The notes beneath the pieces are model-generated. The model searched no databases. It worked only from the letters and a program-made list of their open reading frames with translations, and was not told where the DNA came from. This document shows, piece after piece, positions 19,479-41,951 of a stretch of 58,984 nt of DNA. The DNA comes from a virus. Lineage: Duplodnaviria > Caudoviricetes. Numbering within the stretch: the stretch's first letter is position 1; the number at the start of each line of letters is the position of its first letter. The translations under genes and the position numbers were made by a program. The stretch is taken from positions 1 through 58,984 of the IMG/VR virus record IMGVR_UViG_3300045741_000116; one strand, written 5' to 3'.

Positions 19479-19499
19479 CTAACTTAGTCATCCGCGCTT
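19479..19499 (-). promoter_or_regulatory. Putative late promoter motif, copy 1
   Basis: AAGCGC GGA TGACT AAGT TAG. Confidence 0.7.
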
Positions 19500-21771
19500 A
19501 CTTGCGGCGTCCGTGACGGTCAGCTTCTGCCGACTGGCTCATAGTTTGATAGGTAGAATTGTCTTTCCCTAATGATGACGTGCCTTTACGCTTCGGCGCA
19601 CCAGGGGCCTGTGGTGGGGGCTTAGGCAGGGGCTGAGCCATCAAGATAGACTGGGGAGTCATAGAAGAGTCTATAGGCTGCCCTAAAAACATAGATAAAG
19701 CGATCTTAGTCTTGTGGGGGATAAGCTCGCCGTCTGCTTCCTGGGTCATCATGGCATTGGATAGCTTACTAGCTAACTGGCCATACACACCGGGATACAT
19801 ACCACGGAGGTCCTGCATGTCTGTAGGCAGTAAGCTACCGTTCTTTACGTGCTCCATAACAACTAGCGGGTTCTGAGCTATGGTAAGAGCCCTCTGGTAC
19901 CGTGCCATCTCTGCGTCGGTAGGCGGGATTTCCTTGTCTAAAGGCCCTGGCTTGAACGGATGGGGCTTGATCTGCTGTAAGTACTGTAAGGCTTGAGTAG
20001 TGGCCTTGGTAAGCATGGCCTGCTGGTCTGGCATGTAATGGCTTAGCTCGCCGTTACTGACCTTACCGAGCTGGTCTGGGTTCTTGGTGTAATGATCTAC
20101 AACCTTGTCCATTTTGTCTAGGGAGGCTTGGCTAGGAATACTGATCTTAGACGCTCCGGACTTAAATACCGAGCCTGTAGCGTCTCCCATAGCCTTAGCG
20201 CCTTTAGCGACCATAGTAGCGTACTCTAAAGCTGATTTCATACCAGCTGGTGATATGGCTTTGTCCATGAGAGGCTTGAGTAAAGGCTTTAGAGCGTCAC
20301 TAATGACAGGGCCTAGGGCGTAAGTACCGGTCAAAGCTCCTAGAGCCTCACTACCAAGGGCGTGCCCGACACCAGTTCCAATGGCACCACCAATACCTTT
20401 ACCGGCTATCTTATGGAGCTCGGTAGCTACTAGGGCGTCAATGACCTTAGCTCCAGGACTCTCAGCTATATGCCCGTTTGGATAACCTACAGGTCTGGCA
20501 GCGTGGGATTTAGCCTCGTTGAACTGCATTTGAACTACGTCAGGACGGCCTAAAGTCTTGTAATCCCAGTCCTTTGGTGCGTATTCGTCTGCAAACTTAA
20601 GTCTTGCAGTCTCGTCCATATGTTTGCCATAGAGGTTAGGGAGCTTACCATTGATGTCAAAGGCGTCTAGCTTAGAGGCTTTCTTGTTCCACACTGCGTC
20701 ATCAACTAAGCGTTCACCACGACCCTTTTCAAGCGAGAACACGCTGACAAGCTCACCGTCAGGCTTGATAGCGTACCCAGACTTCTTGTCAGGGGACAAA
20801 TAAGTCTTCATACCAGTGTACTCTTCAGCTGCGTAAGGCGTGATATTGGCCTTATACATTGGATCTTTGTTCTCTAGAACCTTACCAATGGTCTTGTGGA
20901 ACTCCTCGTGCGGTACTTTCTCGTGGATTAAGGCTTCTGCTAAAGGCTTTTCTGCCTTGGTTCCTGCCGCAAGGGCTGCTTCTTCGGCAGCTGCTCCGCC
21001 ATTCTTTACGTAGTCTAGGCGGCCTTTCATTTGTTCTAGAATAGGTCCGACCTTCTTACCTACAGTGGCTTCCCAAAGTGGTGAGATGCTGCCTATAGCT
21101 GCTCCACCGACACCGCCCAGGGCTGCTGAAAGACCAATATTGGCAATGGCGCTCTGGGCAGACTGGTCTGGATCGTTGACAATCATCTTGGAGACTTCGT
21201 TACTGCCGCCCAGTAAAGCCATTTGGACTGCTTGGTCCACGGCTTCTGAAGCTACCTTAGCTCCAAACGTAGAGGCTTTACCTAATCCTGCAGCTTCTGA
21301 GGCTGCCTTACCTACTTTGGCTAAGACTTTGGCTTGACCTCCAGGTATGAACGAGCTACCTACAAAGCCTGCAGTTTCACCTGCGGCGTGGGTGATAGGG
21401 AAATCTTTCTCACGACGAAGCATGTCCTCAGGCTTAACACCAAATGCACGCTCAACAGCCGGTGCGATAGGTCCTGCTACGCCCTTACCTGCCCCTTCAA
21501 AGAAAGACTTAGTCTGTTCTATGCCGGACTCAGAGTCAGGTGTTACTTCGGAATCAGGTACGATGCTGCCTGGCGCGTCTGAAAGGACTTGGTCTGCGGG
21601 GATAATAGGTCCACCCTCAGCATAGTACTCACAGTCAGGCTGGTGCATACCACCTGTAGCGCAGAGGCTTAGAACCTCTCCGCCTTCGGCCATACCACCG
21701 TAGCACCGACAGTTGGGATGCGGCATACCGTGGGACTTACAGTTGGGGTTAAGACAGGGTTTGTCTGAAAT
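19498..21771 (-). CDS. Ejection (internal virion) protein with Cys/His N-terminus, AEGG motifs and GNAT-like insert; probable ATT start at 21771 (first ATG 21726)
   Basis: Ala/Gly-rich hydrophobic helices; follows two other ejection-type genes; GAGGT-N4-ATT. Confidence 0.7.
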   Translation of the reverse strand: MSDKPCLNPNCKSHGMPHPNCRCYGGMAEGGEVLSLCATGGMHQPDCEYYAEGGPIIPADQVLSDAPGSIVPDSEVTPDSESGIEQTKSFFEGAGKGVAGPIAPAVERAFGVKPEDMLRREKDFPITHAAGETAGFVGSSFIPGGQAKVLAKVGKAASEAAGLGKASTFGAKVASEAVDQAVQMALLGGSNEVSKMIVNDPDQSAQSAIANIGLSAALGGVGGAAIGSISPLWEATVGKKVGPILEQMKGRLDYVKNGGAAAEEAALAAGTKAEKPLAEALIHEKVPHEEFHKTIGKVLENKDPMYKANITPYAAEEYTGMKTYLSPDKKSGYAIKPDGELVSVFSLEKGRGERLVDDAVWNKKASKLDAFDINGKLPNLYGKHMDETARLKFADEYAPKDWDYKTLGRPDVVQMQFNEAKSHAARPVGYPNGHIAESPGAKVIDALVATELHKIAGKGIGGAIGTGVGHALGSEALGALTGTYALGPVISDALKPLLKPLMDKAISPAGMKSALEYATMVAKGAKAMGDATGSVFKSGASKISIPSQASLDKMDKVVDHYTKNPDQLGKVSNGELSHYMPDQQAMLTKATTQALQYLQQIKPHPFKPGPLDKEIPPTDAEMARYQRALTIAQNPLVVMEHVKNGSLLPTDMQDLRGMYPGVYGQLASKLSNAMMTQEADGELIPHKTKIALSMFLGQPIDSSMTPQSILMAQPLPKPPPQAPGAPKRKGTSSLGKDNSTYQTMSQSAEADRHGRRK

Positions 21772-21780
21772 AACTACCTC

Positions 21781-24162
21781 TTAGCGTCTGCGCCAGTGAC
21801 CGTTGCTAAACACGATTGGGTTACCGTTGGAGTCCTTACCAGTCTGGCCTTCTTTATACATAGGCGCCTGCTGTGGCTTAGCAGCCAAAGGAAGTCCGTG
21901 TTGTCCAATCAAAGTATTGTACCTAGCATGGTTACTTTCTACCATCTCATTCAGTCTAGCAGTATTTCCCAGTAATTGTGGAATAATATCTGTAGGAGTT
22001 TTCTTGAACTGCTCGTCGTACCAAGCCAAACGACCTTCTGTAAGAGCTCCGCCCTTGATAGAGTCGTTGTAGAAGTTCTTCATTTCTTCTACTTTTTGCT
22101 GTACTACCGCACGTTTAGACGGATTCATAGTGCCTGAGTTCTGTCTAATGAAGTTCAGTAGGTCTCGACCTTTATCGTCAAGGACCTTCATAGCCGTGAT
22201 CTGGCCTCGGACGTCCGCCGATACCGGAATCTTAGCGACTCCGACGTTAGGAACGATCTTGGACTCAAGGTTGTTAGCGATATCGTTCTGACCGTTCATT
22301 CGAAGCATTTGGACTTGCTGAGCTGCAACCATTGGATCGTCAGCTGGGTGAGTCATTACAGAACGCATCATCATTTGCATTTGAAGCTCATAGTTTTGCT
22401 TATGGAGCTGTGACATAGCCATTTGTGCCTGTGCTTGAGCTTGTGGACCTGCTGCTTTAGCTGCTGCGAGGTTGATCTTATTGGCTACGGCATCGTTCAT
22501 CATGATACGAGTCATGTCTTGTGCGTCTCTAAGATTATGGAATTGCTGAAGATTCGCGCTCAACAGGTTTTGTTTAGATGAAAGATTGGCTTTCTGAGCG
22601 TCAATGGAACGGTCAATCTGCTTGTTAAGGAACTCCATAGCAGCGTTAGGGCTAGCTGTGGGGTTAAAACCAGCTATGATCATACCGATACCAGCTAGGA
22701 GACGACTGTGAGAGCCGTTGCCGTTAGCGTCGCCGGTCCAGTACTTGTCTGGATCAATGTGGCCGTTCTTAATATCTTCGATATGAGCCTGGCGTTCTTG
22801 CTCCAAAGCCTGGTATCTGTTCTTGAAGTCTTGGGCAGCAGTTGCTTGGGCTTGAGCCTGCTCTTCGTAGGCCTTTTGCTGTTGGATGGCTTGTGCTTCC
22901 TGAGACTTAGCCATTCCTTGAATGCTCTGTTGAGCCAAAGGAAAGATACTGTTCATGCTCTGCTGCATGTCAGGTGTGCCAGACTTCTTAGGAGCAGGTA
23001 TTGCCGCAGCCTTCTCTTGAGCTGCCTTGGCTTCCCCTTCAGCTTTAGCTGCCTGGGCTTCTGCCTCTAGCTTAGCCGCTTTAGCTAAGTCCTCAGAAGA
23101 AGGAGGAAGTTTGGCAGCGTTAGCAGCCATTTCCTTCTCCATAAGCTGCTGTGGAGACAATCGCTCAGGTGGCGGAGGAGCTGGCATGTTCTCAGACCCA
23201 GGGTTAACACCTGAGGGTCCCATAGTCATAGGCATGCCCGAAGGTTGAAAGTCAGGTGCAGGAGCTTGTTCTGCAGGCTGAACGTCGTCAGTTCCTTCAG
23301 CGTACTCACGTACTTCACCGCCGCCAGCAAAGCCAGAGGCCTTAAGTGTTGGTACGGCAGGCTTAATCATTTGACCGATCTCGTCTACTTGCTGAGCAAT
23401 AGGTGGCTGCGCAGGAGCCGGCTTAGGTTGCATAGCAGCCTTTGCAGCTGCTCTAGCTTCTCTGGCTGCGTTTACCTTGGCTGCGATCTCAGCTTGTTTC
23501 TTTTCACCGCTAATCAGCATCTTTTGGGCCTGCATGATCTCTCGGTCCAAGCCCTTTTGAGCTACTGGGCTGAGTACCATGCGGCTAGCCTGTTGGCCTA
23601 CTTTACCGATGCTTCCCGCCATATTAGCTGCGTTCATAGCAGCGTCTCTACGTTCCTGGGCAGTCATTTGACCGCCTGCGATAGTTTCAAGGTAGTCAGC
23701 GGCTGTGGGCTCGTACATAATACTGCCCATCTTATCTTTAAGTATCTTGGACTGGTAATCATTGTAGGCGTCATTAGCAGGGTCCATATCAGCTGCAGGA
23801 CCTGTGCCTACCTTCTGAGGAGGCTGAACCATTGGTGCATTAGGGTCAATACCACGCATAGGGTCTGGGTTCTGCATCAACTGGTCACGCTGGATCTGTT
23901 GACCTACTGCTGACTGAGCTGGCTCGATGTCTCCACCGTCTGCCAACATTTGTTTGTCTTCTTTGGCTTCTGCTTTGTCTGTAGGCTTCTTGCTGGAGTT
24001 TGCTGCTTGGGCTAAGGCCGCGAGCTGAGCCTGGGTGTCTTTACTCAAAGGCTTGGTAGCCAAAGTAAGTAGATGCCCATCCCTGTGCTGCAGGGTGTGA
24101 GACTTATCGTCTGATTTCACATGCTTGAACTGCTTTAAGTCTAGTGCTATGCGGCCAGCCAT
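21781..24162 (-). CDS. Large ejection (internal virion) protein
   Basis: Gln/Ala-rich helical, low-complexity; podovirus ejectosome position. Confidence 0.7.
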   Translation of the reverse strand: MAGRIALDLKQFKHVKSDDKSHTLQHRDGHLLTLATKPLSKDTQAQLAALAQAANSSKKPTDKAEAKEDKQMLADGGDIEPAQSAVGQQIQRDQLMQNPDPMRGIDPNAPMVQPPQKVGTGPAADMDPANDAYNDYQSKILKDKMGSIMYEPTAADYLETIAGGQMTAQERRDAAMNAANMAGSIGKVGQQASRMVLSPVAQKGLDREIMQAQKMLISGEKKQAEIAAKVNAAREARAAAKAAMQPKPAPAQPPIAQQVDEIGQMIKPAVPTLKASGFAGGGEVREYAEGTDDVQPAEQAPAPDFQPSGMPMTMGPSGVNPGSENMPAPPPPERLSPQQLMEKEMAANAAKLPPSSEDLAKAAKLEAEAQAAKAEGEAKAAQEKAAAIPAPKKSGTPDMQQSMNSIFPLAQQSIQGMAKSQEAQAIQQQKAYEEQAQAQATAAQDFKNRYQALEQERQAHIEDIKNGHIDPDKYWTGDANGNGSHSRLLAGIGMIIAGFNPTASPNAAMEFLNKQIDRSIDAQKANLSSKQNLLSANLQQFHNLRDAQDMTRIMMNDAVANKINLAAAKAAGPQAQAQAQMAMSQLHKQNYELQMQMMMRSVMTHPADDPMVAAQQVQMLRMNGQNDIANNLESKIVPNVGVAKIPVSADVRGQITAMKVLDDKGRDLLNFIRQNSGTMNPSKRAVVQQKVEEMKNFYNDSIKGGALTEGRLAWYDEQFKKTPTDIIPQLLGNTARLNEMVESNHARYNTLIGQHGLPLAAKPQQAPMYKEGQTGKDSNGNPIVFSNGHWRRR

Positions 24163-24163
24163 G

Positions 24164-25429
24164 TTATTTACCTTTTTTAAGAGCTTGTTCTCTCATTATC
24201 TTAGCAACGAAAGCGTGCGCGGCCCAGTGAGGATGTTTAGCTTGTGTAACTGAGCGAGGGAGTACGATTCCACCCTCTTCCAATGTCTTAGGTACTGTGT
24301 CATTGGCGTATGAGTTCTTAGCGCCCTTGACTTTAGGTTTACCTGGGATCTTCTCGCCAGCTTCCATTGGGTCTTTCTTACCTTCAACAACCTTCTTAAC
24401 CTCTTTAGGTGGAAGGTAGCGCTCGCCGGGGGATACCATGGCTGGTACTTCCTTGTGAACTTTACCGCCTTTGGCGAACATTTGGCCAACTCTAGATCTA
24501 GGACCTTGCATCCCTTGCTGGGTAACTCGTCCGCCTTCAGCAGCTACTGCGAAGTTCGACCCGCTCTCAACTGGTGAAGGTTGACTGAAGTCCATAGTTG
24601 GGGCAGTCTCACCTTGCTGGGGCTGCAGGGTGCTCATATCAAAGCCACCTGCGTTAGAGGCGTTGTCCATATATGTCTGGCCGGCAGAAGGAGTTCCTTG
24701 CTGACCGCCAAATAGTTTGCCGGGAATAAGCTGAAGGGCAGAGCCAATAGCTCCGTTAACATTAGCGTCAAGGTTAGCCTGGCGCCCAGCGTTAGTTTGG
24801 TTATTAGCCATCTGCTGCTGTGCGTTCTGGAGCTGGGCTTGGTTGACCTGGTTCTGACCATTGAGGAGCTGTTGCTGACCTTGGAGGGCTGAGTTCGTAT
24901 ACATTTGGTTGCCCTGAAGGAGCTGGTTAGCCTGTTGTCCTGCGATGTTACCCTGCTGGCCTAAAGCTGCCAACGATTGCTGAGCTTGGAGAGCGGCTGC
25001 TTGTCCAGCCATAGACTGTTGGTTCAAGGCACCTTGCTGGGCGGCCTGACGGGCTATAAGGCCTACGTTTTGTCCTGCTCCACGTTGTCCGGCCATGAGT
25101 GCAGCTTGATTGGCAGTGTTCGCGCCAGTGGCGTTTGCTAGCATTGCCTGAGCTGGATTTGGTCCCTGGCCTGACGCCACATTACCCAGCTGATTAAACA
25201 CCTGGGACTGGTTCTGAAGAGCGTTCTGAGCTGTAAGGTTATTCACCAGGTTTTGCTGGTTAGTCATGCCTTGGTTGACATGCTGGAGGTTCTGAGCGTA
25301 CTGAGCTGGGTTCACATAATTCGTAGGAGGTGCCTCTATAGCACCAGGTTGTGACTTTTTGGCGTTAGAAGCGTTAATCGCTCCGCCTACGACTCCTACT
25401 GCTGCCCCGGCTACTGCTGCCCAACTCAT
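24164..25429 (-). CDS. Ejection/pilot protein with C-terminal FAKGG...VPAMVSPGE domain
   Basis: N-terminal MSWAAVAGAAVGVVGG and Gln-rich body typical of DNA pilot proteins. Confidence 0.7.
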   Translation of the reverse strand: MSWAAVAGAAVGVVGGAINASNAKKSQPGAIEAPPTNYVNPAQYAQNLQHVNQGMTNQQNLVNNLTAQNALQNQSQVFNQLGNVASGQGPNPAQAMLANATGANTANQAALMAGQRGAGQNVGLIARQAAQQGALNQQSMAGQAAALQAQQSLAALGQQGNIAGQQANQLLQGNQMYTNSALQGQQQLLNGQNQVNQAQLQNAQQQMANNQTNAGRQANLDANVNGAIGSALQLIPGKLFGGQQGTPSAGQTYMDNASNAGGFDMSTLQPQQGETAPTMDFSQPSPVESGSNFAVAAEGGRVTQQGMQGPRSRVGQMFAKGGKVHKEVPAMVSPGERYLPPKEVKKVVEGKKDPMEAGEKIPGKPKVKGAKNSYANDTVPKTLEEGGIVLPRSVTQAKHPHWAAHAFVAKIMREQALKKGK

Positions 25430-25974: not shown

Positions 25975-28900
25975 TCAACCGAACTGGCGACTAGCCCGTT
26001 GAGTTCTGTAGCCTTTCTTGACTCCAACTGTGAGATTTACACCACTTATGGCTATTCCAGCGCCTGCTGCTACCCCTAGGCTAGGGTCGTAGATCTCGTT
26101 CACTGTTACTTGGAAGGAGCTACACTTCTGGATCTGTGGGAATAGCTGGGCTTCAAAGGCGTTGGCAGGGCCTCCCCATACGCTTCCGGCACCCCATAAG
26201 GTATCTCCGCCGTAAACAGGTGAGAAGTTGTCCTGACTAACTGAGATGTTCTGGCTAAAAGATGAGTTATAGTCGTAGGCCAGCTGTACTGCTAGTTTAA
26301 AGGGAGTAAAGTAAGTGCCTAGAAGGTGCAGGAAGTAGAACCTCTCATAGCCTTGAAGGCCTGCTATATTGATCCAAGCAGTTGTGAAAGACATAAGAAC
26401 AGGGTTTGACCCGTCCAGGTATGTTCCGGGCGTTTCTTGGAACACCGAGCCTAAAGAGCTCAGGTATGTATGCTGTCCCTGCCATAATAACGCAGAGATA
26501 GCCGAAATATTAGAGAAAGTTGCCCATTGGTCGTAATAATAGTCGTACATCAGGGTAATACCACTGCTCATTATGAAGCGAACTTGATTTGTCCCTTCAA
26601 TAGCTGTAGCACTAGTAACTGTGTCGCTGTTGTACTTCTCTACTGGGGCTCCAATATACTTAGTTTCTAGGTTTCTGCCTAGGAGCCATATACCTTTCTC
26701 AGATTGGAACATTATCCCCATTGGGGTTAATACCACTGAGCTAGGGTTAGTTGTTCCTACTGACGAAGTTATGTACACAGGCTCGCTGAAGTCGTTGTTT
26801 GCTCCTGTATTGTCAGGACCTTTACCTGTCAGGTAGTACATAGCTGCCTTCTTGAACATGATGAGCTTGTCATCCATGGCAGAAAGAGCTGTCAAAGGGC
26901 CTGTAGAGCCTTGGGCACCTGAGGTAGGGGACACGTAGATAGTGAACAGGTCTGAGAACTCGACGGGGGTGTTCTCAATGACTTGTTTGCTATACCACAT
27001 TAGATTCTGGTCTTCCGCGTCAATGACAAACATCCTGTTTTGATACAGGCAGCTATGGATTGAAGCCGGGGCTGCAATATTCTCGACTATCCCGCCTGTG
27101 GTATAAAGGAGGGTGTTACCGAGTATGGCGCTATCTGCCTGGGTATCTGTGAACGTCACGCTGTCAACTGTAGGGTCGTTCAGTGTAGGGCTAGCCAGGC
27201 TTGTGAACTGGTAATAGGTCTGCTGAGCGGCACTCCAACGATAACCTACGATGCGGATAGGGTTAGGAGATACCTTGTAAGTAAGCCTAAGTGTTGGAAC
27301 TTGCAAGGTAATAGAACTTGTACTGCCAGTCGTAGCTGATCCTACAGGGATTGAAGGAGCAGATCTGTGGAGGTTTCCAGCGTTGTCTGTCCACTCGTAA
27401 GTGAACTGGTAGTAATACGTAGAGGCTGCCATGCTACCGCCGGTAGTTGAGGCAGTAAGTCCTATGTTCTCAGGATAGAGGTGGAAGCCATGCTCGACTG
27501 GCTTAACACCATCGAACTCCCATACCTGGCCTCCAGTTAAGTGGAGGGCTCCAGCTATCTCTGAGCTGTACTGACCAGTTTGGTTAATACTGAATTTTGC
27601 TAAGGAAATACCTGTTTGGGTATAGATAGCGTTAACTGGTGTTCCACCAGGGAGCCCTGTACCCTTATTTACTGTGGCTAGGAAATCATTGAGCAAGTAT
27701 GGAACGTAATTTGTCCCATTTAGGACACTTATCGTAGGCAGCACAAAGGATCTAGCGTACCCGCCTGCGTTGGTAGCGGCTAGGCGCATGTAGACATGGC
27801 CTGAGCTGTCCATAAGGAAGTAGGTAGGCTCGTTGGTGGCTGACGTTCCGGTCTGAGTTGTTAACCCGTAAGCTGTCAGAAAATAGATCTTACTGTCTTG
27901 GAAGAAGGGCTTAGAAGCCAGTCCGACTGACCTAGCTACAATCGTTTGACTGCTTACTGATCCAGCTATACTAACGGTTTTAGACGCGACGTAGTCTGTC
28001 CTAGCGTTAGGGGAATAGCTGTAAGTATTCGTAACTTGATACAAAGCAGTCATTATGTTGCTGTTAATCGCCATTGTCAGTTCATTTATCGTTGTGCTAG
28101 TAATGAACTGAGTAGGAGCCAGTGCTGGAACTGCGTTGAGGTTGGCGTTGTAGGCTGTTGTAAAGGCGTTACCGCTGCCTGACTGCCAGTAGCTAGCCCA
28201 TATGGTAGGCGTTGGTGTAGACTCGTCTGCCGCAACTGATACCAGTTGGCTCACTGAAGCCGCTAAGTTACGCGCCACAGACTGATTCAGGATTACGTCC
28301 ATGTACCTTAGTCTGGTATTGCCGTTACCGCTCCAGATCAAATACAAACGGTTATTGGCTACTATACCGTCATGCGCTGAGGTAGCTGAAGTAAGGCCTG
28401 TGTCGATGTCTACCGCGCTAGTTACTGTAGTCGGAGCGTTAGTAGAGATAGCGATGTACTGGAAATGGTTAGACCCGCCAACTATAGCCGTGAAAGTAAT
28501 AATGAAGTAGCCGCCTAATAGGAAAGCTCTCGGGTTAGATGAGTTAGTAGGCAAAAGAGTCCTAGGAACGATCTGCTGGCCTGTACGGCTGTCTGAGATC
28601 TGGTAGGCCGCTGCACCTGCGTCTACGTATACCAAGCACACTAGGCCTGAGTCTGCTACAGCAGCGTCTGGGCTAGTCTGGTTGCTGCCTGTACGAACCA
28701 GGGACAAGGTGTCTAGGGACACTGGTTGGATCGTACCTTTGTCTACCCACATGTCTGTATCTTGACTGTAGGCGTATAGGTCGGAGCCTGTAGCTAACAG
28801 GTTATCATTAAGCTTGGTAAGGGTAGTCTGGGCTGTGTTTGGAAGAGTAGTAACGTTCTTAAAGCCGTTACGTTTCGTTAAACGGCCCGTAGTATCGAAT

Positions 28901-29010
28901 ATAGAATTCTGTAAAGCAGAGAACGTACCAATTTGAAGCTGGTAAGGGTCAGTCTTGGTATCAATTCCCTTTGCGAAATTGATGTTTACGTTCTGCTTTT
29001 GTAATGCCAT
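25975..29010 (-). CDS. Tail nozzle / tail tubular B-like stabilization protein
   Basis: 1011-aa beta-rich protein; N-terminal GIDTKTDP...LQNSIF...GRLTKRNG pattern; position after adaptor. Confidence 0.75.
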   Translation of the reverse strand: MALQKQNVNINFAKGIDTKTDPYQLQIGTFSALQNSIFDTTGRLTKRNGFKNVTTLPNTAQTTLTKLNDNLLATGSDLYAYSQDTDMWVDKGTIQPVSLDTLSLVRTGSNQTSPDAAVADSGLVCLVYVDAGAAAYQISDSRTGQQIVPRTLLPTNSSNPRAFLLGGYFIITFTAIVGGSNHFQYIAISTNAPTTVTSAVDIDTGLTSATSAHDGIVANNRLYLIWSGNGNTRLRYMDVILNQSVARNLAASVSQLVSVAADESTPTPTIWASYWQSGSGNAFTTAYNANLNAVPALAPTQFITSTTINELTMAINSNIMTALYQVTNTYSYSPNARTDYVASKTVSIAGSVSSQTIVARSVGLASKPFFQDSKIYFLTAYGLTTQTGTSATNEPTYFLMDSSGHVYMRLAATNAGGYARSFVLPTISVLNGTNYVPYLLNDFLATVNKGTGLPGGTPVNAIYTQTGISLAKFSINQTGQYSSEIAGALHLTGGQVWEFDGVKPVEHGFHLYPENIGLTASTTGGSMAASTYYYQFTYEWTDNAGNLHRSAPSIPVGSATTGSTSSITLQVPTLRLTYKVSPNPIRIVGYRWSAAQQTYYQFTSLASPTLNDPTVDSVTFTDTQADSAILGNTLLYTTGGIVENIAAPASIHSCLYQNRMFVIDAEDQNLMWYSKQVIENTPVEFSDLFTIYVSPTSGAQGSTGPLTALSAMDDKLIMFKKAAMYYLTGKGPDNTGANNDFSEPVYITSSVGTTNPSSVVLTPMGIMFQSEKGIWLLGRNLETKYIGAPVEKYNSDTVTSATAIEGTNQVRFIMSSGITLMYDYYYDQWATFSNISAISALLWQGQHTYLSSLGSVFQETPGTYLDGSNPVLMSFTTAWINIAGLQGYERFYFLHLLGTYFTPFKLAVQLAYDYNSSFSQNISVSQDNFSPVYGGDTLWGAGSVWGGPANAFEAQLFPQIQKCSSFQVTVNEIYDPSLGVAAGAGIAISGVNLTVGVKKGYRTQRASRQFG

Positions 29011-32566: not shown

Positions 32567-32578
32567 TCAAGGGCGCTT
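32558..32578 (-). promoter_or_regulatory. Putative late promoter motif, copy 3
   Basis: AAGCGC CCT TGACT ATTG TAG. Confidence 0.7.
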
Positions 32579-32941
32579 GTGGAGGCGTGATTTCAGGGTG
32601 TCTAAGAGGTATTCTATCTTGAATTTGTCGTTTAGCTGCCTATTACGGCCTGAGGGATGCGGCAGGTGGTATAGTTCTACTACCCACCCGTTTCTTTTAA
32701 GCGTCTTTTCGACCCTTTTACGGGCTTTTAGGCCTAAAGTAATGATAGGCTGGTTAATTATCTCAGATCGACGTAAAGCGGCAGCCAGGATATCAGGGTC
32801 GTTACTGTTGACTGCCCAGTAGGTTACGTCTAAATGAGCCGCCCAGGCTTTTAACCTGGGCTCACACTTAGCACCCACGAAGGCTACGTGGGTGTCAGTG
32901 TTAAGTTTAGACGGCTCGTCACCTACAAATAGTACTCTCAT
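32567..32941 (-). CDS. Minimal uracil-DNA glycosylase-superfamily protein
   Basis: VLFVGDEPS, AFVG, IITLG, LPHPSGRN motifs. Confidence 0.75.
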   Translation of the reverse strand: MRVLFVGDEPSKLNTDTHVAFVGAKCEPRLKAWAAHLDVTYWAVNSNDPDILAAALRRSEIINQPIITLGLKARKRVEKTLKRNGWVVELYHLPHPSGRNRQLNDKFKIEYLLDTLKSRLHKRP

Positions 32942-33068
32942 ATAAGTTGAGCTGCCAGGATGATTAGGAGTGCTATCCCTACCCCTGTCTGTCCACCGAA
33001 ACAGTAACCAACTCCTACCATTAGGAGGTTAATTATTACTGCCTTAATGTTATGCGCTGTCCGGCGGG

Positions 33069-33072
<4 letters not shown>
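32938..33072 (-). CDS. 44-aa membrane protein (not in ORF track)
   Basis: [44 protein letters not shown]; ATGA overlaps at both ends. Confidence 0.6.
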
Positions 33073-33639
<567 letters not shown>

Positions 33640-33672
33640 TAACAGTTTTATATACTTTTTGAGAATCTTAGC

Positions 33673-34578
33673 TTAGTCTACCTTGAAGTTAGAAGTTTTA
33701 GCCAACTCGTCCTTGTACCATTCTGGGAGACCTCTGATAGCTACGCGCTTAACCGTGGGGAAGAAGTGCTCAAACAGCTTCTGTTTGATCTCGTCTGCAC
33801 ACTCGGCCTCGATATCGGCTTGTACCTCTTTAAGGAGGGGCCCGATGTCTGAAGGGGTACCGGTAAGCTTCCCTGCTTCTTTAAGATGCTGGACTGCCTT
33901 ATTCCAACGAGCAGGCGTCTTGTATTGCTCGGCTAGCATAAGGTGAAACTCCCCGCTACTTGGGTTAGTTTCTTTCCAGTTCTTACCGTGCACCTCTTTA
34001 AATGCCTCTGACACATACTTACCGAGGAAGACTTTGCCATCGTTAGCAAACCGCTTGTAGTTCTTTACTACGACTCCTTCTACCTTCTGGCCGCCTAGAA
34101 CAGAAACGGTCTCCATAAGAGCCTTGAACATATTGTAATCAGTAACCATTCCTTCAAATACAATCGGTACGGTTTCAAGTCCAATACGTTCAGCTTCAGC
34201 TTTCTTATCCGCGTAAGGAAGATAGACTTCTTGTGCGGGAGAAATATCAAAAATAATGATATTGTTCTTCGGCGCTCGGTCATAGGCCAAAGCGTTATGT
34301 TTAGGCTTGTTTAGATATTCACCTCTGTAGGTGTAGCCGTCTTTAAGTAAAGGCTTAAGCTCCTGGATAACCTCAATAGCCCTGGTGAACATCTTCTCAG
34401 GCGCCTCTATGATCAATTGCTGGCCTTTAGACCTAGCCTTGAGCTCGCCATCGAACACTCCGAAGCTGAACTGACTACCATCCACCTTTTCCTCAATAAT
34501 CACTGGGTCAAGGAAAATGTCCTGAATTACTCCATGCCCTAAAGAATAAATCTTTGGATAGGTGTGCCATGATGTCAT
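33673..34578 (-). CDS. RNA ligase (Rnl2-like nucleotidyltransferase)
   Basis: YPKI, EEKVDGSQF (KxDG), RGEY, IFDI, EGVVVK motifs. Confidence 0.8.
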   Translation of the reverse strand: MTSWHTYPKIYSLGHGVIQDIFLDPVIIEEKVDGSQFSFGVFDGELKARSKGQQLIIEAPEKMFTRAIEVIQELKPLLKDGYTYRGEYLNKPKHNALAYDRAPKNNIIIFDISPAQEVYLPYADKKAEAERIGLETVPIVFEGMVTDYNMFKALMETVSVLGGQKVEGVVVKNYKRFANDGKVFLGKYVSEAFKEVHGKNWKETNPSSGEFHLMLAEQYKTPARWNKAVQHLKEAGKLTGTPSDIGPLLKEVQADIEAECADEIKQKLFEHFFPTVKRVAIRGLPEWYKDELAKTSNFKVD

Positions 34579-36351: not shown

Positions 36352-36383
36352 AAGGAATATTCGAAGAATATACCTTTTATGGA

Positions 36384-37688
36384 TTAAGCAGAAAGCTGAA
36401 CAACACAGTTCATGCCAGGGGCAGAACAGATCAAGTTACCGTAGTAACCGATACGGATTTCCAGGGCATCCGCGTTTCCAACTCGGAGTCCTTCCAAACC
36501 TTCCATACCGTAGGTAAGGATGTGTGGAACTTTACCCAAAGAGCGCAGTTTCCATGTGTTCATTGTCAACATGTAGGCTGTTTGGGGAGGACATGAGCGG
36601 TCAGCAAGAACAGTAACACGTCCGTAAGCTGATTGGAAGGTGATACCTTCGAAAGCCACTTCAACTTCGTCGTGGTTAACTTGAACGTACTGAACTTTCG
36701 CTCCAAGAGCGTTAACAAGAGCAGCGTAAGAAGCGAAGTCCATGATGATAAGATCAGGTTTCGCGCCCTCACGGTTGCTGTATGCCAGAGCTGAAGTCAA
36801 ACCTTCTTCGATTGTCAGTGACTGAGCGTTGAAGCGCAGACCAGCCAAACGAGTAGGATCTGTGGATCGGTTAACACCCCAGAAGTTATCGTTGGAAGCA
36901 GGTGAACTTACCGGAATCCAAGCAGCCAGACCAGAGAGTGCCAAGAAAGAGCTAGTAGAAGAAGCTCCAGTTGACGGAAGGTCTCCGAGGATGGTAAGGT
37001 AAGCTGATCCAGTACCGATAGCCCAGTTAGCAGACAGAGTAGCTGCAGAAGCAGTTCCAGTAACTACGCCAGTAGCGCGGTTAACGCTAGTGATAGTCAC
37101 AGTGTCTGTAGAAGGAGCGCCACCGTCAGTAGCAGAAGCAACGAGTACCATTCCAACTTCGAACGCTACGATTTGTTGAGCGTTAGTCAAAGGAAGTACT
37201 GTTCCACCAGCTGTAGTACCTGACTGGGTAGAAGCAGAACTAGAAACACCGCGAGTAGCAGTTCCTGATCCAAACAATTCGAAAGCGATGTTGTTTGTGA
37301 TGTTGCGGAAACCGCCATCCATTTGAAGCTTAGCAGCGTCAACGAATGCACCAGCGTTGGTCTTAGTTTGTTCCATTAACAAGTTAGTGATAGTAACCAA
37401 TTGGTAGTCTTGGATTACGTATACGAAGAAAGACGCCAAAGAAGACGCAGTCTGCTGGTTCTGAGCGTTAGCAAACGTATGCGCACGACCTTGGGGGTTT
37501 CCGTACTCGAGTGGTACCGGGATGTATTTACCGGCAAAGCCATCGGGTGATTCGTTCTTAGGAACAAGTGCAAGGAATGGATTTTCCTTATACACTAAAT
37601 CCTTCATATATTCTTTGTCGTCCGTATACAGCTCTTTCAGGGCTGCAATCTGGTTCGAACTATTTGCATATTGTGGAGAAATTGACAT
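36384..37688 (-). CDS. Major capsid protein
   Basis: 434 aa; follows portal and scaffold; biased codon usage; terminator downstream; ALKELY...NPFLALVPK N-terminus. Confidence 0.85.
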   Translation of the reverse strand: MSISPQYANSSNQIAALKELYTDDKEYMKDLVYKENPFLALVPKNESPDGFAGKYIPVPLEYGNPQGRAHTFANAQNQQTASSLASFFVYVIQDYQLVTITNLLMEQTKTNAGAFVDAAKLQMDGGFRNITNNIAFELFGSGTATRGVSSSASTQSGTTAGGTVLPLTNAQQIVAFEVGMVLVASATDGGAPSTDTVTITSVNRATGVVTGTASAATLSANWAIGTGSAYLTILGDLPSTGASSTSSFLALSGLAAWIPVSSPASNDNFWGVNRSTDPTRLAGLRFNAQSLTIEEGLTSALAYSNREGAKPDLIIMDFASYAALVNALGAKVQYVQVNHDEVEVAFEGITFQSAYGRVTVLADRSCPPQTAYMLTMNTWKLRSLGKVPHILTYGMEGLEGLRVGNADALEIRIGYYGNLICSAPGMNCVVQLSA

Positions 37689-37718
37689 TTTAATTTCCTT
37701 TAATTAAATTTAAGTTAT

Positions 37719-37765: not shown

Positions 37766-38809
37766 TTAAGATTTCAGTCTGCCTTCCATTGCCAGTATTG
37801 CCCGTTCTCTAGCAGATAACGGCCTAGAGGAGCTCGTAGCATTGGTAAGCGTTTTCATGGTCGGTTGCTGCACCTGTTTCTGTTCAGCCACTGGCTTCGG
37901 CTGTTCTACTTGCGGCTTAGGCTGGCCGGCCTGGAGTCGCTTTTGAATCTTTTGGATCTTAGAAGCGTAACCTGTCAGTTGTTCTAACAAGTAGTCTTCT
38001 GTCTCTCTACAAGCTTCCTCGACCGTCATGACTCGGCCTTCTTCTCGTAGGGTTTGTTCAATCAAATCAACTACATCCTTTACTGAGCCTGTAGCTTTAA
38101 TCGTTTCGAATTCAGGGTCAGAGTTCACTAGGGTGGTGGCTTCGTTAGTCAGCTGTGAGATAGCTGTTCTATAAGTCTGCTGCTCACGCTCTTCAATCGT
38201 TTTAACCGTCTTCTGGTTCTCTTCTCGAAGCGCTTTAATCTCAGCTTTCAGCATTTCCATTTCAGCCGATACCCGTGGGTCTCTAGGCTGTTGGTTAATG
38301 ATCTGTTGGGTGAGTTCTTCGTAGGAGACGCCTGACTCAGCTAGGATATCCAGGGCTCGTGCCTTGATCTCATCCTTAGTGTAGCCTTGAGTCGGCTGAG
38401 AGGGGGTAGCTGTAAGCTGTGCCTCTCGTGCAGCTAAAGCCTCTTCTCGGGCCTTTAGCTTAGCTTCCTGCGCTTGAGCCTTAGCTCGTAATGCCTGCTC
38501 TTGTCGAGCGATCTTGGCATACTGCGCTGTGATAGCCGGGTCTACCTTTGGCTTCTCTTCAGCCTTAGGTTCGGTCTCCGTAACTTCTTGAGACTGCGCT
38601 TCTATAACGTCATTTCCGCTTGTCTTGGGCTTTACGGCGCCCATTTCTTCGGCAGACACCTGGGTAGCATTCTGTACCGTGGTGTTCTCCTGGGGTTGTT
38701 GGTTCTGTCCAGTTAACATAGCGACAACCTTGGCTTTTACGTCAGCGCTGGCTGGTCGGTCTACTGTTGGTTGGACGGGCATTGGGCCTGCAATAGGCTG
38801 GATTTTCAT
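37766..38809 (-). CDS. Capsid scaffolding protein
   Basis: Charged coiled coil between portal and capsid; basic C-terminal helix. Confidence 0.75.
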   Translation of the reverse strand: MKIQPIAGPMPVQPTVDRPASADVKAKVVAMLTGQNQQPQENTTVQNATQVSAEEMGAVKPKTSGNDVIEAQSQEVTETEPKAEEKPKVDPAITAQYAKIARQEQALRAKAQAQEAKLKAREEALAAREAQLTATPSQPTQGYTKDEIKARALDILAESGVSYEELTQQIINQQPRDPRVSAEMEMLKAEIKALREENQKTVKTIEEREQQTYRTAISQLTNEATTLVNSDPEFETIKATGSVKDVVDLIEQTLREEGRVMTVEEACRETEDYLLEQLTGYASKIQKIQKRLQAGQPKPQVEQPKPVAEQKQVQQPTMKTLTNATSSSRPLSARERAILAMEGRLKS

Positions 38810-38897
38810 GGGTTACTCCTTGTTCGTTTGTTGGTTACTACTTGCACAAACTTTTAGTAAAATTTCATGTAATTAAATCTATAACGGCTTGATTTTA

Positions 38898-40787
38898 TTA
38901 AGCTCCTGGAGCGTTAGGAATTAATGGGCTTGTCGGAGCCGGTTGGGGATTGGCTTGGGGCGTAGGTTGCGGTCCTGCTGGTGCAGGAGGAGGCTGGGTA
39001 GAAGCCAGTAAAGCTTGTACTTGGGCTCGGAAGTCACGGAGCTTCTGGATCTTAGACTCTTCAAGCTTAGCGCCTGAGTACAGGTTGATGTAGGCTACTG
39101 CGTGCTGGTTAGCCAGGTCTAAAGGAAGCTCAGGGTAAGGAGGCGTGTACTTGCCTGTCTCTACGATATCGTCCAGGATCTGGAATACCCGCTCTTCACC
39201 TGCGTTAGCCAGGGTTTCCATTTGTTCGAGGTCCGGGTAGTCTAGGAGTCGTCGGCCTTCCTGCAGGGTAATCATACCTGACTGCACCATCTCGGTGACC
39301 TTAGCCAAGCGACCTGCTGGATCTTTAGGAAGGGACGACTGAGTAAAGCACTGGATGATATAGGTATCTTCCAGCATGGAAGCCTTAGGAAGATCTACTT
39401 CTCTGGTTCCGTTCTTGTTGGGATACACCGTAGTGTAGGAACCGTCTCGTTCTGCAATATCCTTAGCAAGATCAATTACTTGGTAAGCAAGGTCGACGAA
39501 CATATTATCATACCGCTTAGCAAGGGAAGCAAAGCGGTCAGTACTAATATCATCGTAAGTGCGAATAGCTTCGCCGCTGTCCAAACCTTGGGGTTTTTGG
39601 CTAGACGCCTGCAGTGCAGACACTCCACATTGCTGGTATCCGTATTGGATGAGCTTGTCGCGCTCCGCGTACAGTTCTGGTGCATTTGAAGGTGCCACTT
39701 CGTAAGTAGGTTTGGTTCCTCTGAACTTGACGATTACGCCGATATCGTTGTTGTGGTGAGCGGAAGAGACTTTGGAGCCCTCTTCTTGGAATACCCTCGG
39801 TACACCGACGAGCTTGATGGCTCGGCTAATGGTGTATAGGATGCTGTTTAATTCCATTTGGGTGCCCATAAGCTGCTCGGCCAGTCCTTGTGACCAGAAG
39901 CCTAGGAGTCTTGGGCTATAATGCATGAATGTGAAGGGGAAACGGTCTTTGACGTACTCTTCATCTACCAGGTATCCAGCTGAACAGGCCAGAGTATGGC
40001 GTCCGTCCTTGGCGTTCTTACCTGAGCGGAGGTGCCATCCTTCTACGACCATTACTAGGTCTGAGACCGATTTCGACGCGTCTGGTCCGTTATCCGGCGT
40101 GGCTTTAGCTGCCATCTCAATCTTTTTTGCAAGATGAGGAAAATTTGCCATAAGCACATCGCGGTCAACAAGTTTAATACGATAAAGCTGTCTGGGTTCT
40201 CCATACATTGCCTCGTTAGGGTCTACTAGGAGTTCCGTAAGGAGGACTCGCTCCATACCGACTCTGGCGTCTGGGGTTTCAAACGTGTGGATGCAGCCAG
40301 TACCTTCTACCAGTCCGTCTCGCAGGATAATGGGGGCCAGCTCGTAGGTCTTACAGTTATAGAACTCACCTTCTACGAAATTGTTCAGTTTTTTAGCGAG
40401 GTTACGCTGTTTATAATCCCCGTTATCAGTGAGAAAAACTGGCTTAGGACGTGACTGTGAGATTCTTGACACCAGAGTGTCAGTAGCAGACTGTATAAGG
40501 TTAAAAGTAGGACGTTCCTGAGGAAGGCCCTGGGTCTGGTCCATTTTAGACATGTTAGAACCAGCAAAGCTATAAAGACTTTGGTTACCATACAACCTCG
40601 CGTAGATAGCTGCTTGTCGGTACCGGTAGGCCTGGGTCTCTTTAAGATAGGCAGCAGAGGTCAGCATCTGAGAAGCGGCCTTATCCTTGTCCTTCTCTAA
40701 CCACCATTGGGCTAAGACAGCCGCGTTAGGGGCTTCCTTAGTCCTGAAGGTAACTTTTTTAGGAGCTTCTGTAGCTGTTACTTTCAT
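38898..40787 (-). CDS. Portal protein
   Basis: 629 aa downstream of TerL; FNLIQSATDTL...SRPKP, GVSALQASSQKP..LDSGEAIR; Pro-rich tail. Confidence 0.85.
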   Translation of the reverse strand: MKVTATEAPKKVTFRTKEAPNAAVLAQWWLEKDKDKAASQMLTSAAYLKETQAYRYRQAAIYARLYGNQSLYSFAGSNMSKMDQTQGLPQERPTFNLIQSATDTLVSRISQSRPKPVFLTDNGDYKQRNLAKKLNNFVEGEFYNCKTYELAPIILRDGLVEGTGCIHTFETPDARVGMERVLLTELLVDPNEAMYGEPRQLYRIKLVDRDVLMANFPHLAKKIEMAAKATPDNGPDASKSVSDLVMVVEGWHLRSGKNAKDGRHTLACSAGYLVDEEYVKDRFPFTFMHYSPRLLGFWSQGLAEQLMGTQMELNSILYTISRAIKLVGVPRVFQEEGSKVSSAHHNNDIGVIVKFRGTKPTYEVAPSNAPELYAERDKLIQYGYQQCGVSALQASSQKPQGLDSGEAIRTYDDISTDRFASLAKRYDNMFVDLAYQVIDLAKDIAERDGSYTTVYPNKNGTREVDLPKASMLEDTYIIQCFTQSSLPKDPAGRLAKVTEMVQSGMITLQEGRRLLDYPDLEQMETLANAGEERVFQILDDIVETGKYTPPYPELPLDLANQHAVAYINLYSGAKLEESKIQKLRDFRAQVQALLASTQPPPAPAGPQPTPQANPQPAPTSPLIPNAPGA

Positions 40788-40793
40788 AAGTCC

Positions 40794-41066
40794 TTATTGC
40801 TCTTGCGGTAGATGGCCTTGGGCAGAGTAAAACAGTTTCTGCTCTTCTGTCAGGGTGTCCCAGCCGTCTGCTATGATCTTACCTGGGTCGTTGAAGCCCT
40901 GTACTTCTGGGGCTTCTTTGGCTTGTTTCTTAGATGTAGGAACACTGGGTGCTACAAGATCGGGCTCCAGGTGGAACTCTAAGTTATCGATTTTCATGGT
41001 TTTTACGCCACGCTTGTTACATAACACCAGAAGCTTGTCTAAATCTTTAAGGCTTTCCAGTTTCAC
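40794..41066 (-). CDS. Hypothetical protein
   Basis: ORF between TerL and portal, GAGGT RBS. Confidence 0.65.
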   Translation of the reverse strand: MKLESLKDLDKLLVLCNKRGVKTMKIDNLEFHLEPDLVAPSVPTSKKQAKEAPEVQGFNDPGKIIADGWDTLTEEQKLFYSAQGHLPQEQ

Positions 41067-41069
41067 TGG

Positions 41070-41951
41070 TTACCTCATTTGTCTTTTGGATTGCATTCTT
41101 CGTCGGATAGCTGAAACCATGTCCATTTTGTCTTCTGCCGAGTGCTCTCGCTCGTCCCCGATCTCGTTCGAGTCTTCGGGCTGGTGCAGGCTGTCGATTT
41201 CTTCGTCGTAGTTCTCTTTAAGAGCCGCGTCTTCGTTACGCTTATAGTAGCCATTAGGCTGTTCCATAGCGTTGAGATCAAGGTCAACTTGGCCGCCCTC
41301 AGCGAACTTCCGGCGTTTAGCCATAATCGCAGCTGCCAGTGAGTCATGGCGCTCGTCTTCAACGTCTTCGTCTGGGTCGATGTCATGTACGTCTCCGCCT
41401 TCTGCCAACATGGGAGCCATATGCTCGTTATCCATGATCTCTTCTTCAGAAGGAGACATATAAGATTCTTTGATGGGAGACATAGAAGGCTCTTCGTCTT
41501 CTTCTGCCCGCTTCATACTGACTTCTTCGTTGATCATTCCACCTTTAGCCAACATTTGGAGGCGCATCTCTTCATCTTGGAGCTTACGGTCCAGTACCTT
41601 GAAGGGGGAGTCTGCGGCTACCATCTTAGACATTTTGAGGGGCTGTGGGTTCTTAAGGCTAGGAGTTCTGCGGGGAGCGTCTTGTTTGATATCAGGGCGG
41701 GAAAGCATTTGAGATTCTTTAATAGCCTTGGGAGTTTCCTGGTGAGCAATCTCTACTCGGTCATTGTGCTTCTGGTCTGGCATTGGTCGGGCTTCAGACT
41801 TAACTGATCCACCTTCTGCCATCTTCTTGGGAGCCTTGCGCTTAACTGCGTAAGCTATTGCAATTGCTTGTTTTTGCGGCTTACCAGCGTGCATTTCGGT
41901 AGCGATGTTCTCGCTCATTGCTTTCTGTGATTTACTCTTAATTAATGGCAC
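41070..41951 (-). CDS. Low-complexity probable internal head protein with four AxGG motifs
   Basis: MPLIKSKSQKAMSENIATEMHAGKPQKQAIAIAY N-terminus; MAEGG, LAKGG, LAEGG, FAEGG. Confidence 0.7.
   Translation of the reverse strand: MPLIKSKSQKAMSENIATEMHAGKPQKQAIAIAYAVKRKAPKKMAEGGSVKSEARPMPDQKHNDRVEIAHQETPKAIKESQMLSRPDIKQDAPRRTPSLKNPQPLKMSKMVAADSPFKVLDRKLQDEEMRLQMLAKGGMINEEVSMKRAEEDEEPSMSPIKESYMSPSEEEIMDNEHMAPMLAEGGDVHDIDPDEDVEDERHDSLAAAIMAKRRKFAEGGQVDLDLNAMEQPNGYYKRNEDAALKENYDEEIDSLHQPEDSNEIGDEREHSAEDKMDMVSAIRRRMQSKRQMR

What the first reader, a model, noticed from the sequence alone, without database searches (positions are those of the whole stretch)
19498..41951. Shared hydrophobic-A-x-G-G-x-(V/I) tag in four unrelated virion-interior proteins: candidate packaging/maturation signal system
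Seen: the motif recurs in 41070-41951 (MAEGGSV, LAKGGMI, LAEGGDV, FAEGGQV), 24164-25429 (AAEGGRV, FAKGGKV), 21781-24162 (LADGGDI, FAGGGEV, degenerate YAEGT) and 19498-21771 (MAEGGEV, YAEGGPI). That is about 10 copies in otherwise dissimilar, low-complexity proteins. I did not notice it in capsid, portal, fibre or replication proteins. Known: FAxGG occurs near the processed C-terminus of siphovirus tape-measure proteins such as lambda gpH. Inference: in this podovirus it may be a di-glycine cleavage site or capsid-loading tag for cargo. 41070-41951 would then be a polyprotein cut into peptides, and the ejection proteins would carry removable propeptides. No canonical prohead protease lies in the head module.
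Basis: partly seen in the sequence, partly recalled or inferred. Interest (0 to 1): 0.8.

Follow-up and report, generated by a model that had tools for sequence, protein, structure and literature searches.

The report
Conserved cut-site-like motif in phage ejection proteins
A short peptide signature recurs only in four proteins this phage probably carries inside its particle, and it matches the spot where phage T5 cuts its tail ruler protein, so it is most likely a processing site.

Summary
About 0.14-0.22 hits are expected by chance.

The motif is conserved in homologues:
- 119 of 119 listed relatives of the 293-aa protein.
- 149 of 149 listed relatives of the 421-aa protein's C-terminus.
- 94 of 119 relatives of the 793-aa protein.
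- Only 21 of 83 relatives of the fourth protein.

It is absent from terminase, portal, scaffold and capsid homologues in 80 related loci. The motifs lie in predicted disordered linkers at domain borders.

The same A-x-G-G core occurs in two tape measure proteins. In T5 pb2 it sits directly after R1127, the mapped cleavage site (PMC10038345). It occurs twice in the lambda gpH region that is cleaved at an unknown site.

My best reading, at about 0.45, is a maturation cleavage site cut before the Ala, not after Gly-Gly. No protease is identified: a ClpP-like and a trypsin-like gene exist but are sporadic among relatives. Cleavage is untested here. This scan has noted the same motif before on other phage DNA.

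The parts
41070..41951 (-). 293-aa protein P0001 between large terminase and portal. It has a basic N-terminal domain (aa 2-45, phrog_2423), then conserved acidic blocks separated by four motifs, then a basic tail. Candidate polyprotein.
41802..41822 (-). motif 1 of P0001, MAEGGSV (aa 44-50)
   Evidence: A45, G47, G48 invariant in 25 aligned homologues
41532..41552 (-). motif 2 of P0001, LAKGGMI
41388..41408 (-). motif 3 of P0001, LAEGGDV
41286..41306 (-). motif 4 of P0001, FAEGGQV, preceded by the conserved A-I-M-A-K helix
24164..25429 (-). 421-aa protein P0002. It has a hydrophobic Gly-rich N-terminus, a Q/N-rich middle, two motifs and a very conserved C-terminal domain. Its layout resembles a small tape measure protein.
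24524..24544 (-). motif AAEGGRV of P0002
24458..24478 (-). motif FAKGGKV of P0002, directly in front of the conserved domain
   Evidence: A30, G32, G33 invariant in 40 aligned sequences
24167..24475 (-). C-terminal ~100-aa domain of P0002 (aa 319-421). It is 57-82% identical to the listed homologues, is confidently folded and has no detected fold relative.
21781..24162 (-). 793-aa protein P0003. It has a small N-terminal beta domain, disordered linkers holding the two motifs, and a helical C-terminal domain.
23926..23946 (-). motif LADGGDI of P0003 (aa 72-78), in a linker with pLDDT about 35
23311..23331 (-). motif FAGGGEV of P0003 (aa 277-283), followed by degenerate YAEGT, in a linker with pLDDT about 32
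19498..21771 (-). 757-aa protein P0004 with a Cys/His-rich N-terminus, two motifs and a GNAT-like domain. The start is probably ATT at 21771, behind a GAGG ribosome-binding site.
21673..21693 (-). motif MAEGGEV of P0004
21604..21624 (-). motif YAEGGPI of P0004

Best explanation
The motif has this form: basic residues, then M/Y/F/L (sometimes K/R), then Ala, a polar residue, Gly-Gly, any residue, then Val/Ile. I read it as a short linear recognition site for proteolytic maturation of proteins that travel with the DNA. These are the three ejection-type proteins and the 293-aa protein next to the portal gene.

By analogy with T5 tape measure protein pb2, the cut would fall between the hydrophobic or basic residue and the Ala. 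The new N-terminus would then begin A-x-G-G. Predicted products:
- P0002 would release its conserved ~100-aa C-terminal domain, as T5 releases pb2C and lambda releases gpHC.
- P0003 would shed a 73-aa N-terminal domain.
- P0004 would shed a 27-aa Cys/His-rich leader.
- P0001 would be cut into five peptides (1-44, 45-134, 135-182, 183-216, 217-293).

Shown: the motif, its specificity, its conservation, its position in disordered linkers at domain borders, and its coincidence with the mapped T5 site.

Inferred: that it is cut in this phage, the position of the bond, and the protease. The protease would have to be a host enzyme or an unrecognised virion activity, because no phage protease is universal among relatives.
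For: 1. Specificity. All 10 of 10 six-frame hits fall in the four ORFs, against 0.14-0.22 expected. In 80 related IMG/VR loci (1,830 ORFs, 338,561 aa), 119 of 119 strict hits and 176 of 181 loose hits lie in P0001 homologues. There are none in 63 terminase, 60 portal, 48 scaffold or 52 capsid homologues, nor in 1,204 unassigned ORFs.

2. Conservation.
- P0001 family: 119 of 119 listed homologues carry at least 1 loose motif and 102 of 119 carry at least 3.
- P0003 family, searched with residues 400-793 only: 94 of 119 carry a loose motif, always in the N-terminal 60%.
- P0002 family, searched with the C-terminal 132 aa: 149 of 149.
- Ala and both Gly are invariant in the alignments.

3. Extended logo. 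There is K/R at -3 and -2, M/Y/F/L at -1 and V/I at +5. This 8-9-residue window is what a protease or binding groove would read.

4. Accessibility. The motifs lie in low-confidence linkers between confidently folded parts.

5. T5. pb2 has only two A.GG in 1,219 aa, one at A1128. The paper localises the cleavage 'after R1127' (PMC10038345, passage in section 9). Chance coincidence is about 2 in 1,218.

6. Lambda. gpH carries the core at A734 and A779, inside the Gly-rich C-terminal region from which a ~14-kDa piece is removed. Both the site and the catalyst are unknown (PMC12617516, passages). A cut before A734 would give 79.8 + 12.5 kDa.

7. Free-standing 41-46-aa versions of the P0001 N-domain end where motif 1 begins.

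8. Precedent for a host peptidase. The GenBank record annotates P22 gp7 as losing 20 N-terminal residues to host OpdA.
Against: - There are no proteomic data for this phage or any relative, so cleavage is pure inference.
- T5 matches only the A-E-G-G core. It has Arg at -1 and Met-Met after the Gly-Gly.
- 25 of 119 P0003 homologues and 62 of 83 P0004 homologues lack the motif, so it is not essential to those proteins.
- The T1 tape measure protein, T7 gp13-16 and P22 gp7/gp20/gp16 lack it. HK97 has only a variant.
- Profile comparison finds no homology between the P0002 domain and T5 pb2C or lambda gpHC beyond the 8-column motif.
- No protease partner is identified. Among 10 complete relatives the ClpP-like gene is in 5, the trypsin-like gene is in 3, and 3 have neither.
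- The trypsin-like protein has an N-terminal membrane anchor and so probably faces the periplasm.
- I found no MPTase, S78 or S49 protease.
Confidence: 0.45

Rival explanations
1. The motif is a docking handle that is not cut. It would bind one common partner during assembly, such as the portal, the core stack, a chaperone or the conserved C-terminal domain of P0002. That partner would recruit or order the proteins that leave with the DNA.
For: - The same specificity, conservation and disorder data fit a binding motif equally well.
- Multiple copies per protein (up to 6) suit avidity.
- The most conserved domain of the module always has a motif directly in front of it.
- A second short element, A-I-M-A-K, is shared by two of the families.
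Against: - It does not explain why the T5 cut falls exactly at the core.
- In the single-chain model of the P0002 C-terminus, neither nearby motif packs on the domain: pLDDT is about 50 or lower.
- No partner is identified.
- Tape measure proteins sit in tails, not capsids, so a capsid-specific partner cannot be general.
Confidence: 0.25
2. The motif is only a flexible seam. It would be a hinge and recombination joint at which modules of ejected proteins are swapped, with no reader protein.
For: - The motifs lie at borders of independently folding or independently occurring modules.
- Presence and number vary between homologues.
- Earlier reports of this scan describe module exchange at such motifs in giant tape measure proteins (not checked here).
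Against: A mere hinge would not keep an invariant Ala, a hydrophobic or basic -1 residue, basic -2/-3 residues and Val/Ile at +5 across hundreds of diverged sequences. It also does not explain the T5 coincidence.
Confidence: 0.15
3. The motif is read by a host protein after ejection, for example an envelope or cytoplasmic factor. This would resemble the short epitopes in the disordered translocation domains of colicins.
For: - The carriers are proteins that probably enter the cell, and the motifs are disordered and repeated.
- Tape measure proteins are also ejected (PMC12617516 passages).
Against: - No host is known and no candidate partner was tested.
- The colicin analogy is recalled, not tested.
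- This reading does not explain a cut made during T5 tail assembly.
Confidence: 0.1

Closest known systems
Maturation cleavage of phage T5 tape measure protein pb2 into pb2* and pb2C (Linares et al. 2023, PMC10038345; passages read)
   Same: - The A-E-G-G core lies directly after the mapped scissile bond R1127/A1128.
- The site separates a long N-terminal part from a small C-terminal domain of about 90-100 aa in a protein that is ejected. P0002 has the same layout.
   Different: - T5 is a siphovirus and pb2 is a tail protein.
- T5 has Arg at -1 and lacks Val/Ile at +5.
- There is no detectable homology of the C-terminal domains.
- Here the motif occurs 2-4 times per protein and in four proteins.
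Lambda gpH processing to gpH* and gpHC (PMC12617516; passages read)
   Same: Two copies of the aromatic-A-T-G-G core (A734, A779) lie in the unresolved, Gly-rich C-terminal region where a ~14-kDa piece is removed. A short P-A-x-x-x-x-G-E element follows, as in P0002.
   Different: - The lambda site and catalyst are unknown, so the link is a prediction.
- Pfam Tape_meas_lam_C covers gpH 627-701, not the motif, and does not match P0002.
- hhalign finds only the motif in common.
P22 ejection protein gp7 leader removal by host oligopeptidase A (annotation in NC_002371)
   Same: A podovirus ejection protein loses a short N-terminal leader to a host peptidase. Gly-Gly pairs follow the cut.
   Different: There is no A-x-G-G at that site and the register differs.
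T4 internal-protein capsid targeting sequences and prohead protease sites (recalled, not tested)
   Same: Short peptides mark cargo for loading and are removed during maturation.
   Different: - A dedicated prohead protease sits in the head module there. No S78, S49 or Pfam/PHROG-recognisable protease was found in this head module. The T4-type S77 family itself was not searched.
- The sequence signature is different.
Polyvalent proteins of phages and conjugative elements (Iyer et al. 2017, PMC5512222; passages read)
   Same: These are multi-module proteins delivered with the DNA and thought to be cut into units. One P0004 relative carries the ART-PolyVal domain PF18760.
   Different: Their proposed processing enzyme, the MPTase domain, is absent here. 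That paper's main text contains neither 'linker' nor 'glycine'.

Membership tests
Tape-measure-type maturation site (T5 pb2 R1127/A1128 type) | A-x-G-G core immediately C-terminal to the scissile bond | tested here: met
   The core is present in all 10 window instances and at T5 A1128. The T5 site comes from the paper passage.
Tape-measure-type maturation site (T5 pb2 R1127/A1128 type) | The protein is actually cleaved there during assembly | not testable with these tools
   No proteomics exists for this phage. Supplementary files of the T5 paper (fig. S5G, S8C) could not be seen.
Tape-measure-type maturation site (T5 pb2 R1127/A1128 type) | Homology of the released C-terminal domain to pb2C or gpHC | tested here: not met
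   hhalign of alignment A2 against the T5 and lambda C-termini gave probability 0.2% each. Only 8 motif columns aligned for lambda.
Tape-measure-type maturation site (T5 pb2 R1127/A1128 type) | Site lies in an exposed linker between a long N-terminal part and a small C-terminal domain of an ejected protein | tested here: met
   In the P0002 model, residues 22-33 have pLDDT below 50 and the domain from 38 onward is above 90. The P0003 linkers are at about 32-35. Ejection itself is inferred from synteny.
Pfam PF09718 Tape_meas_lam_C | Match to the family profile | tested here: not met
   None of the four proteins has a Pfam hit to it at E up to 0.1. In lambda the family covers 627-701, upstream of the motif.
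Cargo of a canonical prohead protease (S78, ClpP/S14, S49 types) | Protease gene in the head module between portal and capsid genes | tested here: not met
   Portal is followed by a coiled-coil scaffold-like ORF and a SU10-type capsid protein. S78 and S49 are absent. A ClpP-family gene lies far away at 852-1352 and occurs in only 5 of 10 complete relatives.
Polyvalent proteins (Iyer et al. 2017) | Zincin-like MPTase domain for self-processing | tested here: not met
   PF18818 has no match in the genome at E up to 10.

The most novel reading that the evidence does not exclude
One short signature, (hydrophobic or basic)-cut-A-x-G-G-x-(V/I), is a widespread maturation site of proteins that leave phage particles with the DNA. 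It would be shared by siphovirus tape measure proteins and podovirus ejection proteins. It would be read by a still unidentified and probably host-encoded or assembly-activated protease. It predicts that lambda gpH is cut at F733/A734 (or Y778/A779). It also predicts that the 293-aa protein family next to the portal gene is a true polyprotein giving five small virion peptides.
Probability: 0.35. Interest if true: 0.78.

Novelty: new variant of a known kind. Interest (0 to 1): 0.62.

Why it matters
Tape measure cleavage in lambda has been known since 1974. Yet a 2025 structural paper still states that the site and the catalyst are unknown (PMC12617516). A 2023 paper found no conserved motif among tape measure C-terminal fragments (PMC10713586).

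A sequence signature that coincides with the one mapped site (T5) would do three things:
- It gives a concrete, cheap prediction for lambda.
- It provides a search pattern for processing sites in thousands of uncultured phages.
- It suggests that podovirus ejection proteins and an abundant uncharacterised protein family (273 hits) are matured by cutting.

It would also help annotate module borders in the large, fast-evolving proteins that phages inject.

Tried and rejected
- **Close relatives in GenBank phages.** None were found by megablast, or by tblastn of the portal or P0002. A single-protein scan of IMG/VR with P0004 also found none.
- **Family libraries.** Pfam, PHROGs and NCBIfam gave no function for the four proteins. 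The only hits were phrog_2423 on the P0001 N-domain and phrog_2563 (unknown function) on P0004 aa 300-417, the stretch that tblastn matches to phage acetyltransferases.
- **Fold of the P0002 domain.** Foldseek against PDB and BFVD gave no hit at E up to 0.001. VIA-align wide gave a best Z of 2.5. PDB sequence searches with A1, A2, A3 and the 1011-aa protein gave nothing meaningful.
- **Atlas leads.** These were a crAss cargo family at 0.84, an ejection-protein family at 0.83 and a tape measure cluster at TM 0.47. PF25725 has no match in the genome.
- **Binding of the P0002 domain (aa 325-421) to P0001 residues 170-240.** The complex job gave no verdict (score 0.00 against a mark of 0.32). It counts neither for nor against.
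- **Trypsin-like protease 3396-4139 as the processing enzyme.** Rejected as a general partner. It has a membrane anchor and is present in only 3 of 10 complete relatives.
- **ClpP-like protease 852-1352.** It is present in only 5 of 10 complete relatives. I recall that E. coli ClpP cuts its own propeptide at a Met-Ala bond, which would fit the -1/0 residues. This is memory only and was not tested.
- **Complementary protease pattern.** The first five relatives each had one protease or the other. This did not hold in the next five: three genomes have neither.
- **Other recalled analogies.** A resemblance of a P0002 segment to the GroES mobile loop, and of the motif to adenovirus, ubiquitin-like or bacteriocin double-glycine sites, were considered from memory. 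I dropped them because the register differs and no matching peptidase was seen. No dedicated search for C39 or clan CE peptidases was run.
- **Literature.** Searches for the motif words, for tape measure cleavage motifs and for the lambda site found no description of this motif. They cover only the held library.
- **Fifth carrier.** The 140-aa protein 32031-32453 was rejected because its Ala position varies.


Full report
**The window.** The window is a complete 58,984-bp virus record. It has no close relative among GenBank phages.

Gene order on the minus strand is as follows:
- large terminase (42362-43804)
- a 114-aa ORF
- the 293-aa protein P0001 (41070-41951)
- a 90-aa ORF
- portal (38898-40787)
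- a coiled-coil scaffold-like protein (37766-38809)
- a SU10-type capsid protein (36384-37688)
- accessory and tail genes, including a 1011-aa protein (25975-29010) and a 160-aa fibre-like protein
- P0002 (24164-25429), P0003 (21781-24162) and P0004 (19498-21771)
- fibre genes

This order matches the place of internal or ejection proteins in T7-like and P22-like podoviruses. That is the only basis for calling the three proteins ejection proteins.

**Observation.** Composition predicts 0.14 hits in the 19,211-aa ORF set. In 2,000 residue shuffles the mean was 0.22 and the maximum 4. The regex was fitted by eye, so I relied on independent tests.

**Conservation.**
- A search with P0001 returned 273 proteins, of which 119 homologues were listed. 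All 119 carry at least one loose motif and 102 carry three or more.
- For P0003 I searched with residues 400-793 only, which contain no motif. Of 119 listed homologues, 94 carry the motif, always in the N-terminal 60%.
- For P0002 I searched 1.84 billion representatives with the last 132 residues. There were 1,195 hits, and all 149 listed homologues carry the motif. One copy sits directly in front of a ~100-aa domain that is 57-82% identical to the window's own.
- For P0004, searched with residues 100-757, only 21 of 83 homologues carry a loose match and 12 a strict one. There the motif is sporadic.

**Specificity in relatives.** In 13 syntenic IMG/VR loci the motif is in every P0002 homologue (12 of 12), in 8 of 13 P0003 homologues and in 1 of 12 P0004 homologues. 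Two pairs of these loci are near-duplicates.

In 80 loci around P0001 homologues (1,830 ORFs), 176 of 181 loose hits and 119 of 119 strict hits lie in the P0001 homologues. None lie in terminase, portal, scaffold or capsid homologues, or in 1,204 unassigned ORFs. The other five loose hits are four in DNA polymerase homologues and one in a small ORF.

**Anatomy.** The logo extends beyond the regex. It has Lys/Arg at -3 and -2, then M/Y/F/L at -1 (K in a minority). Then come an invariant Ala, E/K/D, Gly-Gly, any residue and V/I.

AlphaFold models place the motifs in low-confidence linkers. In the P0002 C-terminus the domain from model residue 38 has pLDDT above 90, while the motif in front is below 50. 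In P0003 a small N-terminal beta domain (9-56) and the helical C-terminal part are separated by disordered stretches. Those stretches hold the motifs, at pLDDT about 32-35.

P0001 is not plain low complexity. Its family has conserved blocks between the motifs. Its N-terminal domain occurs in other phages as a free-standing 41-46-aa ORF that ends where motif 1 begins.

**Link to tape measure proteins.** Lambda gpH carries the core twice, at A734 and A779, with a P-A-x-x-x-x-G-E element between them that resembles the one after the P0002 motif. I read passages of PMC12617516. [quoted passage not shown] They add that residues about 690-817 are unresolved and that the precise site and the catalyst are unknown. 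A cut before A734 would give 79.8 and 12.5 kDa.

T5 pb2 has only two A.GG in 1,219 residues, one at A1128. A passage of PMC10038345 localises the cleavage after R1127 by mass spectrometry. So the only mapped site lies exactly in front of the core, which would happen by chance about 2 times in 1,218.

The link is not general:
- HK97 has a variant.
- The T1 tape measure protein, T7 gp13-16 and the P22 ejection proteins lack it.
- Profile comparison sees no homology of the flanking domains.
- No Pfam family covers the motif region.
- PMC10713586 reports no conserved motif among tape measure C-terminal fragments.

**Protease.** The head module has no protease recognisable by Pfam or PHROGs, and S78, S49 and MPTase families are absent. 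The genome does encode two proteases elsewhere:
- A ClpP-family protein at 852-1352, with a partial diverged copy at the other end of the record.
- A trypsin-like protein at 3396-4139, with an N-terminal membrane anchor and an intact His and Ser signature.

Among ten complete relatives the first is present in five and the second in three, while three have neither. One of those three carries motif-bearing P0002 and P0003 homologues. So no phage protease can be the general reader. A host enzyme is possible. P22 gp7 is annotated as trimmed by host OpdA, and the T5 paper cites a 1973 title on host involvement in tail protein cleavage.

**Verdict.** The motif is real, specific and old. The best reading is a maturation site cut before the Ala (0.45). 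The rivals are a docking handle that is not cut (0.25), a mere seam (0.15) and a host-binding epitope (0.10). The complex prediction gave no verdict.

Earlier reports of this scan noted the same kind of motif in giant tape measure proteins and crAss-like cargo proteins on other DNA, and also left open whether it is cut. I did not check those claims. They reached me after I had formed this reading.

Noticed in passing
852-1352 (-) and 58638-58982 (-); ends 1-1198 vs 57793-58984: A ClpP-family protease gene (94.8 bits) lies in the early region. A partial second copy lies at the other end of the record. The two record ends align at 84% identity, so this is a diverged terminal duplication or an assembly joining two strain variants.
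   Followed up: partly
3396-4139 (+): A trypsin-fold serine protease with an N-terminal transmembrane anchor lies next to a helicase gene. It probably faces the periplasm. It is present in 3 of 10 complete relatives, and its function is unknown.
   Followed up: partly
21771-21783 (-): P0004 probably starts at an ATT codon five bases after a GAGG ribosome-binding site that overlaps the stop of P0003. The first ATG (21726) has no such site.
   Followed up: partly
about 20455-20931 (-), P0004 aa 281-439: An acetyltransferase-like segment matches annotated acetyltransferases of many Streptomyces phages (tblastn E down to 2e-11). One relative of P0004 carries an ART-PolyVal domain instead.
   Followed up: partly
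41310-41350 (-) and 24170-24230 (-): A second short element, a helix with the core A-I-M-A-K followed by basic residues, is shared by the P0001 family (before motif 4) and the C-terminus of the P0002 family. In some P0002 relatives it runs straight into another A-x-G-G motif.
   Followed up: no
21690-21771 (-); P0003 relatives P0124, P0143, P0183, P0188, P0221: A Cys/His-rich stretch surrounds the P0004 motifs. Several P0003 relatives have motif variants with Cys at the polar position (Y-A-C-G-G), which hints at metal binding next to some motifs.
   Followed up: no
32031-32453 (-): A 140-aa protein has a strongly conserved N-terminus (M-A-N-R-N-aromatic-x-x-G-G-K) in 9 related ORFs (8 loci). 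It resembles the motif but has a variable second position. The relatives are 204-442 aa long, longer than the window's copy.
   Followed up: partly
32567-34578 (-): An RNA ligase, a collagen-repeat protein with a signal-like N-terminus and a small uracil-DNA-glycosylase-superfamily protein sit inside the structural gene block.
   Followed up: no
L003:3724-4141 (MW202674): In an unrelated podovirus record, the free-standing 47-aa version of the P0001 N-domain is unannotated. It overlaps the end of a gene annotated as co-chaperonin GroES, just upstream of terminase.
   Followed up: no
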